Assembly (NCBI GenBank): GCA_951406725.2
Contig: OX597814.1
Location: 188,108,001-188,172,000 of the forward strand
Direction of reading: 5' to 3'
DNA length: 64,000 nt
Origin: Octopus vulgaris
Lineage: Eukaryota
Positions 9,973 to 49,331 of this stretch are shown here, one piece after another. The number at the start of each line of letters is the position of its first letter. Position 1 is the first letter of the stretch. The notes beneath the pieces are model-generated. The model had not been told where the DNA came from and did no database searches. It saw only the letters and a program-made list of their open reading frames with translations. The position numbers were made by a program, and so were the translations under genes.

Positions 9973-10247
9973 ATGTATATATATATATATACAGTAGTAC
10001 CTCGATTTACGAACGCCTATGATCACAAATATATCGTGCTTTATATATATCAATATATATATTTATATACATATAGATACACACACACACATACACACAT
10101 ATATAATAGTGTATGGAATATACACGGAGAGAAAACCACCATGTGGATTTCTTACATGCTAAAAATGGCAGTCAAAGCTCCAAACCAGGAAAAGACTTTC
10201 TAACATTAAAGCACGTTGTATGCGAGCAAGACATTTGAGTGAATAAA

Positions 10248-10361
10248 CATTTCGATTGACCTTATACCATGAGTTTCGCCGCTAATAACCAAATAAATCA
10301 ACTAATAAGTTAATTGATTAATTAGTCATCCGTTGCTCGTCAGTAAGGTCGTTGTGAAATG
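10248..10361 (-). ncRNA. Type I hammerhead ribozyme with long helix II
   Basis: Minus strand: catttc-acaac-gacctta-CTGACGA-gc...(long AT-rich hairpin)...gc-GAAA-ctcatgg-TA-taaggtc-aatc-gaaatg. Predicted cleavage at GUA (position 10265). Confidence 0.85.
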
Positions 10362-10380
10362 CATAAATATGAGACTACAA

Positions 10381-15447: not shown

Positions 15448-15844
15448 TATTTTGATTTTTAAAATTATTTATGCTGTTGTTAATAGTAATGGTGGAAATT
15501 TTTAGAACGGCTGATCACTCGCTAATGATTCTAGTCGATTAAGAGATAATCTAGAACTAGAAAAATCAACAAAAACTAAGCGTCAAAAAAGGAAGGTAAG
15601 ACACAAACTCACAGAGGTTCCAAAACATATCCAGCTTCGCCAATAAAGAACAAGAAGAAGAAAAATACAACAGTATTTTTCTGTGAATCGAATGCAAAAT
15701 TATAGAAAGCGAAAAAGGCAAAAAATGGAACGTTTCGAACTTCGGTATTCTTCCTGTTTTAGAAGAAAGAAAAACCAGCTGGTAACTATTTAGAACTTCT
15801 GCGAGTTATTACCTACTGTGCGTTTATATGAACGAGTATTTACC

Positions 15845-16258
15845 TATTTCTTTACTACCCACAAGGGGCTAAACACAGGGAACAAACAAGGACAGACAAA
15901 CGGATTAAGTCGATTACATCGACCCCAGTGCGTAACTGATACTTATTTAATCGACTCCGAAAGGATGAAAAGCAAAGTCGACCTCGGCGAAATTTGAACT
16001 CAGAACGTAGCGGCAGACGAAATACCTATTTCTTTACTACCCACAAGGGGCTAGACACAGAAGGGACAAACAAGGACAGACAAACGGATTAAGTCGATTA
16101 CATCGACCCCAGTTCGTAACTGGTACTTAATTTATCGACCCCGAAAGGATGAAAGGCAAAGTCGACCTCGGCGGAATTTGAACTCAGAACGTAGCGATGG
16201 GCAAAATACCGCTAAGCATTTCGCCCGGCGTGCTAACGTTCCTGCCAGCTCGCCGCCT
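15845..16258 (-). mobile_element. SINE family B tandem dimer with 18-bp TSD
   Basis: TSD tatgaacgagtatttacc at 15827-15844 and 16259-16276; structure head-body-tail-body-tail. Confidence 0.9.
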
Positions 16259-20405: not shown

Positions 20406-20821
20406 AAGGCAGCGAGCTGGCAGAAATGTTAGCACGCCGGGCGAAATGCGTAGCCGTATTTTGTCTGCCGTTACGGTCTGAGTTCAAATTCCGCCGAGGT
20501 CGACTTTGCTTTTCATCCTTTCGGGGTCGAAAATTAAGTACCAATTACGCACTGGGGTCGATATAATCGACTTAATCCGTTTGTCTGCCCTTGATTGTCC
20601 TCTCTGTGTTTAGCCCCATGTGGGTAGTGAACAAATAGGTATTTCGTCTGCCGTTACGTTCTGAGTTCAAATTCCGCCGAGGTCGACATTGCCTTTTATC
20701 CTTTCGGGGTCATAAATATAAGTACCAGTTGAGGACTGGGGTCGATATAATCGACTTAATCTGTTTGTCTGTCCTTGTTTGTCCTCTCCGTGTTTAGCCC
20801 CTTGTGGGTAGTAAAGAAATA
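20406..20821 (+). mobile_element. SINE family B tandem dimer with 15-bp TSD
   Basis: TSD ggtatcatttataaa at 20388-20402 and 20822-20836; ~183-bp body-tail duplicated. Confidence 0.9.
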
Positions 20822-21129
20822 GGTATCATTTATAAAACATCAGAGTGGTATCAATTATAAAACATCATTCGGTGAAAATGGGCTGTGATCTAGAAAATGT
20901 TCTGAGCCACTGTTTTAAAGTATTAAAACAGATTATCTAACCTGAAAATTTGACTTCTCTAAGTATTTTACAGACAATCTTAGTTTAGAAAATTTGACCT
21001 TATCTTTATGAGTCACGTAGTCTCATACTTTATATGTGCTGGATCCTTATAATGGTTTCATTAAGCTTTACTGCTGATTATTATCGTTTCTAGCCGACGG
21101 TTTTAAGTCATTCATGAGCAAGAATTATT

Positions 21130-27512: not shown

Positions 27513-27597
27513 TCTTATATATATTATATATATATATATATATCTTATATATATATATTTATATATCTATATATATGTTATATATGTTATATATATC

Positions 27598-28046
27598 TAT
27601 AATTAATTAATAAGGGTGAGAGAATTAGATACTAATTTAATAGTATATTTATTCAACACCAAGTGGCCTAGTGCTACGAGAAACCTGGATTATTATAATA
27701 TTTTATAACATATTATAATATTTTTACAAAATAAATATAAGAGAGTGGTCACTATATTGCTCACTCTAGCACCAGTTAATCCAAAAGGTTTCAACCACGA
27801 AAATACATGTTTCCCATGAAAGTCAGTACGATTGTTAGCTCACACGGACAGGGCAGATAAAAAATAACAAAAATACAGATTATTTTGGGACAATTGTTTC
27901 GCTATTAATGAATTAAATGTAATTTTACTTACAAAAAATCCATTTGTAGCTCGTCAGCCAAGACTATCTGGATGAAATCCACTCAATCACACGCCAGATT
28001 TTTACCATAACGATAAATACGCGTGTGGTTCAATTGATTACATCCG
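27598..28046 (-). repeat. Inverted partial copy of the 534-bp unit (left arm of a ~436-bp-arm palindrome)
   Basis: 27598-28033 is the reverse complement of 28050-28484 (one 1-bp indel seen), with a 16-bp spacer. Confidence 0.95.
27876..27970 (-). ncRNA. Type I hammerhead ribozyme (inverted copy)
   Basis: Reverse complement of 28112-28206; core tcgtcag at 27951-27957; cleavage at position 27889. Confidence 0.85.
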
Positions 28047-28111
28047 TATTTGAACCACACGCGTATTTATCGTTATGGTAAAATCTGGCGTGTGATTGAG
28101 TGGATTTCATC

Positions 28112-28206
28112 CAGATAGTCTTGGCTGACGAGCTACAAATGGATTTTTTGTAAGTAAAATTACATTTAATTCATTAATAGCGAAACAATTGTCCCAAAAT
28201 AATCTG
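28112..28206 (+). ncRNA. Type I hammerhead ribozyme, unit 1
   Basis: cagat-agtc-ttgg-CTGACGA-gcta...tagc-GAAA-CAATTG-TC-ccaa-aata-atctg; GUC cleavage after 28193. Confidence 0.9.
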
Positions 28207-28645
28207 TATTTTTGTTATTTTTTATCTGCCCTGTCCGTGTGAGCTAACAATCGTACTGACTTTCATGGGAAACATGTATTTTCGTGGTTGAAACCTTTTG
28301 GATTAACTGGTGCTAGAGTGAGCAATATAGTGACCACTCTCTTATATTTATTTTGTAAAAATATTATAATATGTTATAAAATATTATAATAATCCAGGTT
28401 TCTCGTAGCACTAGGCCACTTGGTGTTGAATAAATATACTATTAAATTAGTATCTAATTCTCTCACCCTTATTAATTAATTATAATTATGCTGCATTTAT
28501 TTCTAAATGCTGTATTTGTTTTCCGTGAAAGTTTGGCGCGCTGTTGGTTGGGGCATTTGAATTATAACGTCGGATGTAATCAATTGAACCACACGCGTAT
28601 TTATCGTTATGGTAAAATCTGGCGTGTGATTGAGTGGATTTCATC

Positions 28646-28740
28646 CAGATAGTCTTGGCTGACGAGCTACAAATGGATTTTTTGTAAGTAAAATTACATT
28701 TAATTCATTAATAGCGAAACAATTGTCCCAAAATAATCTG
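28646..28740 (+). ncRNA. Type I hammerhead ribozyme, unit 2
   Basis: Identical motif; cleavage after 28727. Confidence 0.9.
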
Positions 28741-29179
28741 TATTTTTGTTATTTTTTATCTGCCCTGTCCGTGTGAGCTAACAATCGTACTGACTTTCAT
28801 GGGAAACATGTATTTTCGTGGTTGAAACCTTTTGGATTAACTGGTGCTAGAGTGAGCAATATAGTGACCACTCTCTTATATTTATTTTGTAAAAATATTA
28901 TAATATGTTATAAAATATTATAATAATCCAGGTTTCTCGTAGCACTAGGCCACTTGGTGTTGAATAAATATACTATTAAATTAGTATCTAATTCTCTCAC
29001 CCTTATTAATTAATTATAATTATGCTGCATTTATTTCTAAATGCTGTATTTGTTTTCCGTGAAAGTTTGGCGCGCTGTTGGTTGGGGCATTTGAATTATA
29101 ACGTCGGATGTAATCAATTGAACCACACGCGTATTTATCGTTATGGTAAAATCTGGCGTGTGATTGAGTGGATTTCATC

Positions 29180-29274
29180 CAGATAGTCTTGGCTGACGAG
29201 CTACAAATGGATTTTTTGTAAGTAAAATTACATTTAATTCATTAATAGCGAAACAATTGTCCCAAAATAATCTG
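29180..29274 (+). ncRNA. Type I hammerhead ribozyme, unit 3
   Basis: Identical motif; cleavage after 29261. Confidence 0.9.
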
Positions 29275-29713
29275 TATTTTTGTTATTTTTTATCTGCCCT
29301 GTCCGTGTGAGCTAACAATCGTACTGACTTTCATGGGAAACATGTATTTTCGTGGTTGAAACCTTTTGGATTAACTGGTGCTAGAGTGAGCAATATAGTG
29401 ACCACTCTCTTATATTTATTTTGTAAAAATATTATAATATGTTATAAAATATTATAATAATCCAGGTTTCTCGTAGCACTAGGCCACTTGGTGTTGAATA
29501 AATATACTATTAAATTAGTATCTAATTCTCTCACCCTTATTAATTAATTATAATTATGCTGCATTTATTTCTAAATGCTGTATTTGTTTTCCGTGAAAGT
29601 TTGGCGCGCTGTTGGTTGGGGCATTTGAATTATAACGTCGGATGTAATCAATTGAACCACACGCGTATTTATCGTTATGGTAAAATCTGGCGTGTGATTG
29701 AGTGGATTTCATC

Positions 29714-29808
29714 CAGATAGTCTTGGCTGACGAGCTACAAATGGATTTTTTGTAAGTAAAATTACATTTAATTCATTAATAGCGAAACAATTGTCCCAAA
29801 ATAATCTG
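29714..29808 (+). ncRNA. Type I hammerhead ribozyme, unit 4
   Basis: Identical motif; cleavage after 29795. Confidence 0.9.
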
Positions 29809-30142
29809 TATTTTTGTTATTTTTTATCTGCCCTGTCCGTATGAGCTAACAATCGTACTGACTTTCATGGGAAACATGTATTTTCGTGGTTGAAACCTTT
29901 TGGATTAACTGGTGCTAGAGTGAGCAATATAGTGACCACTCTCTTATATTTATTTTATATTATATATATCTATATATATCTTGTATATATATATATATAT
30001 ATCTATATATATCTTACACACACACGCATACACGCACACACACACATACACACACACATATATATGTATATACATACATATACATATATATCAATATATC
30101 TATATATATATCTTATATACATACATGCATACATACATACGT

Positions 30143-31672: not shown

Positions 31673-32035
31673 CCCACCTACAAATACATAGAGAGCAACA
31701 GAGAGATAAGATTTAAAAATGGTGTCATATTCAAAGTAAATGCAGATATGAACTGCAAGACGCAGAACGTCATATACTGCATAACCTGCCCCACATGCAA
31801 GGAGAATTACGTAGGAGAAACTGGTAATTCTTTGTGCCAGCGAGCCAGGATCCACCGACAACATATTCGGCAGGAAGAACTACGCAAAATACCACTAAGC
31901 ACACACCTAGCTACATGTGGAGAAGGAAAATTTAAGATATTTCCCTTCTACAAGTGTCCGAAGAATGACACCCCCTTCAGGAGGAATATGGAAAAACATT
32001 TCATAGCTAAGTTCTCCCCCAAATTAAATGGCTGA
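31673..32035 (+). mobile_element. Penelope-like element 3' fragment encoding a GIY-YIG endonuclease (Neptune-type)
   Basis: MNCKTQNVIYCITCPTCKENYVGETGNSLCQRARIHR...STHL...RRNMEKHFIAKFSPKLNG*: VIY/YVG with CxxC, conserved R, H, E and terminal LN. It is 5'-truncated at a (TA)n tract. Confidence 0.9.
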
Positions 32036-48890: not shown

Positions 48891-48959
<69 letters not shown>

Positions 48960-49147
48960 TAGAAAAATGAAATATCTTTTTATGGATAATTCGTTTAACC
49001 GATACCTGGGTAGCAAATTCACATCAGAAATAACACGGTTGAAGTTGCGTGCCTAGGGCAGAGACTACGTGTTTTCGTGTGGAAATTTGTCTGTATTTTT
49101 ATAAAATTTATGAATAAATGAAAGAATGGAGTTGAACGACAAATTAA

Positions 49148-49256
49148 CAAATTTCCTTTATTTTCGACATATGTTTCGAAGGCTGCATATTCCTAATTGT
49201 TAAGGAATAAGGAGTACATTATGCCGCTTTCTCTTCAGGAAAAACAAGGAATTTAT
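49148..49256 (-). ncRNA. Type I hammerhead ribozyme with long helix II
   Basis: Minus strand: ttcctt-gt-ttttc-CTGAAGA-gaaagcggcata...tatgcagccttc-GAAA-CATATG-TC-gaaaa-ta-aaggaa; GUC cleavage at position 49166. Confidence 0.88.
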
Positions 49257-49331
49257 GTCAACATCAAGATTCACAAAAACTTTTAGATGACTGCTCTCAC
49301 TGTATATATGTATATATATATACAGAGAGAA

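What the first reader, a model, noticed from the sequence alone, without database searches (positions are those of the whole stretch)
48957..49300. Third full hammerhead family in a ~340-bp insert within (TA)n
Seen: a minus-strand HHR at 49148-49256 with CUGAAGA, a 12-bp helix II with two mismatches plus an inner ttcct/aggaa hairpin, GAAA, a perfect palindrome CAUAUG, a GUC site and an extended helix I. The insert is bounded by TA-rich microsatellites, like the main array. Three independent HHRs use hexameric palindromic or near-palindromic helix III (CAAUUG, CAUAUG, C(U)CAUGG), which is natural covariation supporting a dimer-dependent mechanism.
Basis: partly seen in the sequence, partly recalled or inferred. 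Interest (0 to 1): 0.75.

Follow-up and report, generated by a model that had tools for sequence, protein, structure and literature searches.

The report
Hammerhead end of knuckle-less Penelope retrotransposon
This is the broken-off end of a common jumping gene that carries a hammerhead self-cutting RNA motif, a known arrangement, but its lineage lacks the zinc knuckle proposed to aim such elements at TA repeats and its copies still end in TA repeats, so that proposal could be tested directly.

Summary
The hammerhead is real: a type I motif on the minus strand with an 8-nt palindromic helix III, GUC site at 49168-49166, and stems that covary across subfamilies. It is not a stand-alone retrozyme. 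The 344-bp insert is the 5'-truncated 3' end (pseudo-LTR) of a high-copy Penelope-like retrotransposon (PLE) of about 3.6 kb encoding a telomerase-like reverse transcriptase and a GIY-YIG nuclease. Hammerheads in PLE ends, palindromic helix III, (TA)n insertion and an octopus Hydra-clade family are all published. The palindrome does not prove dimer dependence, and this copy has no partner nearby. What is new is in the parent lineage. It lacks the CxCx5C linker knuckle shown in the published Hydra proteins and proposed to drive (TA)n targeting; a conserved cysteine-free segment stands in its place. Copies still end in (TA)n (30 of 30 in the youngest subfamily, which has intact tandem copies). 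Copies end at two sites about 140-155 nt apart, and the two arms of an insertion mostly use different sites (15 of 18). Cleavage, targeting and priming are untested. Verdict: new variant of a known kind, moderate interest.

The parts
48957..49300 (-). 5'-truncated copy of the 3' end (pseudo-LTR with tail) of a Penelope-like retrotransposon
   Evidence: 3880 first-look candidates, 40 of 40 scored places at 95-100% identity; longer copies continue upstream into nuclease and reverse transcriptase coding sequence; 95.9% identical to the 3' end of the full-length copy in L061
49149..49254 (-). Type I hammerhead ribozyme with extended helix I
   Evidence: pairs counted on 18 copies
49232..49238 (-). 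Catalytic core CUGAAGA (U7 to A is private to this copy among close relatives)
   Evidence: CUGAAGA is the usual form in other subfamilies (13 of 69 distinct motifs)
49178..49231 (-). Helix II (12 positions, 2 mismatches) with an inner hairpin
   Evidence: 7 of 12 pairs show a change on both sides across 18 copies
49167..49174 (-). Palindromic helix III ACAUAUGU; 2 bp plus tetraloop as monomer, 8 bp as predicted dimer
49166..49168 (-). GUC cleavage triplet; predicted cut 3' of 49166
   Evidence: sequence and the standard hammerhead consensus
49093..49114 (-). End site 1: AU-rich stretch where many other copies stop and join (TA)n; inferred reverse-transcription start
   Evidence: 18 of 21 inverted arms end here
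48957..49092 (-). Tail of about 140 nt between end site 1 and end site 2
48995..49006 (-). GGUAUCGGUUAA, 5' strand of a predicted helix whose partner lies just before the start codon and exists only in RNA that runs from a pseudo-LTR into the next element; the partner is absent in this copy
48895..48956 (.). (TA)31 at the element's 3' end (end site 2)
   Evidence: TA run at 66 of 84 ends in the two clusters against 3.1% of random window positions
49301..49322 (.). Short imperfect TA run at the 5' truncation point

Best explanation
[quoted passage not shown] Shown: copy number, the link to the coding region, intact 895-900 aa frames in sister subfamilies, direct and inverted pseudo-LTRs, two fixed 3' ends next to (TA)n, covariation of the hammerhead, and the absence of the linker zinc knuckle with a conserved cysteine-free segment in its place. 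Inferred: the protein cuts both strands of a TA repeat; each strand primes at one of two AU-rich sites in the RNA, giving two-armed insertions with the tail on one arm; this copy primed at site 2 and stopped early, with no second arm. Inferred: the hammerhead serves the parent element by cutting tandem or read-through RNA, probably helped by pairing of two palindromes or by the protein; in this lone, promoter-uncertain copy it is most likely a passenger.
For: Copies 95-100% identical on many contigs. Nuclease-coding sequence about 540 bp upstream of the insert in longer copies; reverse transcriptase motifs further up. Intact 900-aa frame whose model is closest to telomerase RT structures. Tandem array of period 3,625 bp with two complete frames in the youngest subfamily. 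21 of 30 loci carry an inverted 5' arm. In nuclease-selected loci 15 of 18 two-armed insertions use different end sites (59 loci examined); 14 of 14 visible inverted arms in subfamily F end at site 1. TA run at 66 of 84 ends against 3.1% background, 27 of 27, 30 of 30. Both-strand cutting of AT-rich DNA and two internal start sites defining the tail were shown for an anole PLE (PMC11167929). Knuckle: present in 69 of 70 homologs with a nuclease domain and the 10 Hydra proteins of Craig's Fig. S7; no such motif in 54 of 54 lineage hits or 30 of 30; replacement segment pN 0.12-0.23 against pS 0.51-0.93.
Against: No empty site was found, so TA runs might partly be added or expanded after insertion rather than targeted. 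TA repeats are abundant in this genome and 5' flanks of copies without an inverted arm are TA in only 2 of 9 cases. Loci chosen by the full 344-bp match end at site 2 by construction. Knuckle-bearing Hydra-type families exist in the same genome (20 of 30 by the automated test) and could act in trans. The minimum-energy fold of this copy is not the active hammerhead; the active monomer fold lies 3.1 kcal/mol above the ensemble. In the anole PLE the hammerhead was not needed for insertion in vitro. No cleavage or expression data.
Confidence: 0.88

Rival explanations
1. The insert is a stand-alone non-autonomous retrozyme unit that is cut out by dimeric hammerheads, circularised and reinserted, like the 534-bp array in the same window.
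For: Non-coding, carries a hammerhead, sits at (TA)n like the array; retrozymes are proposed to derive from PLE ends (bioRxiv 10.64898/2026.07.22.740005).
Against: No head-to-tail repeats of the 344-bp unit among 30 loci; 5' ends vary and run on into the 3' UTR and coding region. The array family, by contrast, is tandem at many loci and has no coding neighbour.
Confidence: 0.04
2. The element is as described, but its TA preference is not its own: a knuckle-bearing Hydra-type protein from another family in the genome inserts its RNA in trans.
For: Such families are present, some with long open frames; non-coding elements in this genome must be moved in trans.
Against: The lineage keeps its own frame under purifying selection across subfamilies and has intact copies, which is expected only if the protein moves its own RNA.
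Confidence: 0.1
3. The TA runs are made by the element: the telomerase-like enzyme slips on the AUAU at its start sites and adds TA, or short AT-rich targets expand afterwards, so no targeting needs explaining.
For: Both end sites are AU-rich and merge into the TA run with a few shared bases; 5' flanks of simple truncated copies are mostly not TA (2 of 9); the RT model is telomerase-like.
Against: Two-armed insertions have TA on both outer sides with unrelated flanks beyond, as expected for a split repeat; (TA)n preference is reported for nearly all Hydra families. Neither point excludes the rival.
Confidence: 0.15
4. The hammerhead cleaves efficiently as a monomer, so the palindrome is not a dimer switch.
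For: Invertebrate motifs with 2 bp plus tetraloop cleave well alone (PMC7229834 passages); long helices I and II could stabilise the fold.
Against: The palindrome is kept across subfamilies, with one double change and one wobble change at the central pair, which cannot pair within a monomer.
Confidence: 0.35

Closest known systems
Hydra clade of Penelope-like elements, including Hydra-1_Obim (Craig et al. 2021, PMC8557442; section 11, passages and supplement parts 2 and 58 read)
   Same: One frame with RT and C-terminal GIY-YIG; DKT motif; RW motif; CxxC and CxH around the conserved E and N; no CCHH; type I hammerhead near the 3' end with near-palindromic helix III; (TA)n at ends; inverted 5'-truncated arms.
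   Different: No CxCX5C linker knuckle; about 130-aa low-complexity linker instead; element about 3.6 kb rather than under 3 kb; helix II spans 54 nt rather than about 12-24; tail about 140-155 nt rather than the 30-40 bp given for PLEs; a different family from Hydra-1_Obim (different protein and hammerhead sequence by eye).
PAc (Poseidon) of the green anole (Frangieh et al. 2024, PMC11167929; parts 1-2 of 4 read)
   Same: Two end sites that define a tail, AT-rich targets, an RNA start site within a predicted stem-loop, hammerhead in the pseudo-LTR.
   Different: There the hammerhead overlaps the start codon and the start sites lie inside the frame; here the hammerhead lies about 330 nt before the start codon and both sites are in non-coding sequence.
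Hammerheads in PLE pseudo-LTRs (Cervera and de la Pena 2014, PMC4209133; parts 1-2 of 4 read)
   Same: Type I motif, long helix II, small palindromic helix III, mostly found as single motifs from truncated copies or as close pairs on opposite strands.
   Different: Helix II here is longer (12 positions plus an inner hairpin) and has no unpaired base before it.
Metazoan non-LTR retrozymes (Cervera and de la Pena 2020, PMC7229834, passages read; Li et al. bioRxiv 2026, part 1 of 5 and passages read)
   Same: Short non-coding stretch with a type I hammerhead.
   Different: Not a tandem unit; continuous with a coding element. The 534-bp array in the window fits this class; the finding does not.

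Membership tests
Type I hammerhead ribozyme | Core CUGANGA, GAAA, UH with helices I-III, helix I open | tested here: met
   covariation
Type I hammerhead ribozyme | Self-cleavage at the GUC site | not testable with these tools
   only contigs were available; they cannot show RNA ends
Penelope-like element, endonuclease-containing | Single frame with telomerase-like RT and GIY-YIG nuclease | tested here: met
   900-aa frame; best structural matches are telomerase RTs; Y, YIG, R, E, N align with homologs. Pfam gave no hit for this protein or for two homologs
Penelope-like element, endonuclease-containing | Pseudo-LTRs from partial tandems, inverted 5' copies, tail at one end | tested here: met
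Penelope-like element, endonuclease-containing | Intron in the 5' UTR across the pseudo-LTR boundary (optional feature) | tested here: not met
   a GT..AG candidate showed no joint in possible-RNA contigs and the AG is CG in subfamily F
Hydra clade | DKG modified to DKT | tested here: met
   DKT in L105, L062, L268; DKS in L061
Hydra clade | RWK motif | tested here: inconclusive
   RWL here; homologs show RWK, RWR and once RWL
Hydra clade | No CCHH motif; CxxC and CxH flanking the conserved E and N | tested here: met
Hydra clade | Linker zinc finger CxCX5C | tested here: not met
   absent in 54 of 54 and 30 of 30 lineage hits and in subfamily F; so filed as a derived Hydra-type lineage, not a textbook member
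Hydra clade | Canonical hammerhead near the 3' end and (TA)n at insertion sites | tested here: met
Hydra clade | Falls in the Hydra clade in an RT tree with the published references | tested here: inconclusive
   nested among knuckle-bearing homologs with Hydra motifs in a quick tree of 58 rows; the published reference sequences and outgroup clades were not in the tree
Non-LTR retrozyme | Tandem non-coding units, each with a hammerhead | tested here: not met

The most novel reading that the evidence does not exclude
An active, autonomous Penelope-like lineage has turned the zinc knuckle proposed to aim these elements at TA microsatellites into a cysteine-free segment and still inserts at TA repeats. 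Aiming would then come from the nuclease core and from two AU-rich priming sites in the RNA, one per cut DNA strand, the second displayed in a structure that forms only in tandem transcripts. The intact tandem array offers a natural system to test both target choice and the role of the dimeric hammerhead.
Probability: 0.5. Interest if true: 0.55.

Novelty: new variant of a known kind. Interest (0 to 1): 0.36.

Why it matters
The hammerhead itself is ordinary for this class. The parent lineage matters for two open points named by Craig et al.: what causes microsatellite bias, and how tandem and inverted ends arise. A natural knuckle-less lineage beside knuckle-bearing relatives in the same genome is a ready comparison for the first. 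The rule that the two arms use different end sites is genomic support for priming from both cut strands. The zinc-finger idea already has exceptions (Chlamys elements lack it yet favour microsatellites), so the result would refine rather than overturn the picture. It also explains many lone hammerheads in this genome as transposon debris, and several RefSeq octopus gene models of these frames carry misleading names.

Tried and rejected
Intron across the pseudo-LTR boundary: suggested by GT..AG; no joint in possible-RNA contigs, one contig runs unspliced across the AG, the AG is missing in subfamily F, and the conserved GT stretch is better explained as one strand of a helix. Expression: no RNA holder listed on record; contigs of runs guessed to be RNA cover the element but cannot show ends, strand or level; not used as evidence. 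Neptune clade: my first guess from recall, dropped after reading the Hydra definition. Pfam gave nothing useful for the lineage. Whole-window Rfam list was swamped by microsatellite hits to miRNA models. The repeat finder was swamped by microsatellites. Coding parents for the other two hammerhead families: no tblastn hit in 60 loci or the window. The 50%-cluster search gave the knuckle in only 53 of 101 hits with enough upstream sequence (150 aligned); most of the 48 others look like fragmentary gene calls with unrelated N-termini, so I did not use it as a frequency, but it is weaker than 69 of 70. The structure model does not resolve the replacement segment (pLDDT under 50 at 763-768, about 71 at 771-780). 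The junction helix has no covariation and folds significantly in only 1 of 3 copies tested (z -2.76, -1.86, -0.47). The careful tree did not finish; the quick tree was used. No empty site was sought in reads because contigs break at long repeats.

Full report
1. Observation. The minus strand of 48957-49300 holds a complete type I hammerhead: CUGAAGA at 49238-49232, a helix II of 12 positions with two mismatches, GAAA, the 8-nt palindrome ACAUAUGU, GUC with C17 at 49166, and an extended helix I. Rfam Hammerhead_1 aligns to it at E 0.00048 in a 221-nt search but below the gathering score. A strict descriptor gives 6 hits in the window and none in 300 shuffled windows. The 3' flank is (TA)31; the 5' flank is a short imperfect TA run.

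2. It is a high-copy repeat. The insert has 3880 first-look candidates in the 2.8-Gb genome; all 40 scored places match at 95-100%. The window copy differs from 29 of 29 close copies at four positions, one being the A of CUGAAGA. The closest named proteins are from Octopus sinensis, so the genome is octopus-like.

3. It is the end of a Penelope-like element. Longer copies continue upstream through about 540 bp of 3' UTR into a GIY-YIG nuclease and then reverse transcriptase motifs. The window copy is 95.9% identical to the 3' end of the full-length copy L061 and 74% to that of L105, which has an intact 900-aa frame. In copies with a 5' pseudo-LTR the same sequence runs on for about 50 nt to the start codon. 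A model of the 900-aa protein (mean pLDDT 78.6) matches telomerase RTs best. The youngest subfamily has 40 of 40 scored copies identical over 311 nt and a tandem array of period 3,625 bp with two complete frames.

4. End geometry. Copies stop at two places: about 55-80 nt and about 205-225 nt after the predicted cut. A TA run follows 66 of 84 alignment ends in these two clusters (87 ends examined in 56 loci, 4 duplicate loci dropped) against 3.1% of random window positions; 27 of 27 subfamily C loci with a detected hammerhead, of 30; 30 of 30 subfamily F loci. Of 30 loci chosen by the insert, 21 have an inverted 5' arm and 18 of these end at site 1; this set ends at site 2 by construction. In 59 loci chosen by the nuclease, 18 show both arms and 15 use different sites, 1 is ambiguous and 2 use the same site. 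This matches the published tail at one end only (PMC8557442) and the two internal start sites and both-strand cutting shown for an anole PLE (PMC11167929), but the tail is about four times longer. Site 2 lies in a single-stranded stretch closed by a predicted 11-13 bp helix whose second strand precedes the start codon; support is conservation and folding only, significant in 1 of 3 copies.

5. The hammerhead across subfamilies. Among 18 copies chosen from 69 distinct motifs, 89.6% of cells pair; 9 of 31 pairs change on both sides, 7 of them in helix II; no shuffle of 500 reaches this, and slid controls fall to 28-46%. Relatedness inflates such counts, and I drew the structure from these sequences. 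The central pair of the palindrome changes from UA to CG in one subfamily and stays palindromic. The monomer helix III is unstable (+2.4 kcal/mol) and the self-duplex stable (-7.0); the active monomer fold is 3.1 kcal/mol above the ensemble. This fits a dimeric fold, which is the published model (PMC4209133). It does not prove it: similar invertebrate motifs cleave well as monomers (PMC7229834), and the anole motif needs its protein and is dispensable for insertion in vitro. The three families in the window share no sequence, and this copy has no same-family partner there.

6. Clade and the missing knuckle. The protein has the Hydra-clade marks listed by Craig et al.: DKT, an RW motif, CxxC and CxH, no CCHH, a hammerhead and (TA)n. 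Their supplement already lists Hydra-1_Obim from an octopus. All 10 Hydra proteins in their alignment have the linker CxCX5C motif, as do 69 of the 70 homologs with a nuclease domain among 117 found. This lineage does not: 0 of 54 nuclease hits, some overlapping, down to 46% identity (three truncated hits had cysteines from unrelated upstream sequence), 0 of 30, and none in subfamily F. The 24 residues in its place are conserved: pooled dN/dS 0.07 over 30 pairs near saturation, 0.16 for one pair, against 0.67 just upstream; pN 0.12-0.23 against pS 0.51-0.93 among three subfamilies. An unnamed relative with the knuckle aligns to this segment, suggesting it is the knuckle without its cysteines. 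A quick RT tree nests the lineage among knuckle-bearing homologs, so the loss is derived. Against a clean contrast: in the 50%-cluster search only 53 of 101 usable hits showed the motif, most misses looking like fragmentary gene calls. Knuckle-bearing families occur in the same genome.

7. Mechanism. Shown: origin, copy number, end sites, TA association, covariation, knuckle loss. Inferred: the element's protein cuts a TA repeat on both strands; each end primes at an AU-rich site of the RNA with a few bases of complementarity; aborted copying leaves short ends such as this one; the hammerhead trims tandem or read-through RNA of the parent. Rivals are trans action of knuckle-bearing proteins, TA addition or later expansion, and monomer cleavage.

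8. Novelty. Hammerheads in PLE ends, palindromic helix III, TA insertion and tails are in print. I found no report of a knuckle-less Hydra-type lineage in four full-text searches; Repbase and Dfam could not be searched, supplements of the bioRxiv preprint were not seen, and only parts 2 and 58 of 59 plus search hits of Craig's supplement were read. Earlier notes of this scan reach the same Hydra reading for other windows; the lines shown do not mention the knuckle, and they are not independent support. Verdict: new variant of a known kind; interest 0.36.

Noticed in passing
window 27593-29959: 534-bp tandem unit with its own hammerhead (CAAUUG) and a 405-410 bp inverted arm; 1391 candidates, copies 99-100% identical and tandem at many loci; no coding neighbour found. 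Fits a young non-autonomous retrozyme.
   Followed up: partly
L218 (G000:C20:31499521-31502997): A knuckle-bearing Hydra-type element whose hammerhead has the same CAAUUG helix III and similar flanks as the 534-bp array by eye; candidate relative or mobiliser, though blastn found no match.
   Followed up: no
window 10125-10375, minus strand: Third hammerhead belongs to an older dispersed family (266 candidates, mostly 76-85% identity), with some inverted partial arms and no coding neighbour found.
   Followed up: partly
window 31700-32032, plus strand: GIY-YIG nuclease remnant (PF01541, E 4.7e-7) with two cysteines inside the core, so from a different PLE clade.
   Followed up: partly
L268 (G000:C1:119516500-119526400): Tandem array of period 3,625 bp with two complete frames of the youngest knuckle-less subfamily; 40 of 40 scored copies are identical over 311 nt.
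   Followed up: yes
P0132: Unnamed protein fragment close to this lineage's nuclease but with the knuckle intact; its last two cysteines align to R and S of the replacement segment. P0120-P0122 are more distant knuckle-less relatives (39-48% identity in the nuclease).
   Followed up: partly
L074, L092 (G000:C6:75.41-75.43 Mb): Ends of different subfamilies stand head to tail, putting two related hammerheads 389 or about 920 nt apart on one strand.
   Followed up: no
L114 (G000:C20:23332400-23338600): Two copies whose translations show many N to G/S and K to R/G changes, as if from heavy A-to-G change; cause unexplained, RNA editing before insertion is one possibility.
   Followed up: no
P0085, P0108, P0006, P0118, P0119: RefSeq cephalopod gene models of these transposon frames are named myb-like, GATA zinc finger-like or dyrk1-like.
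   Followed up: no
window 15841-16196, 20456-20826 and other places: 184-bp units and several 180-260 bp inverted matches point to abundant short interspersed repeats.
   Followed up: no
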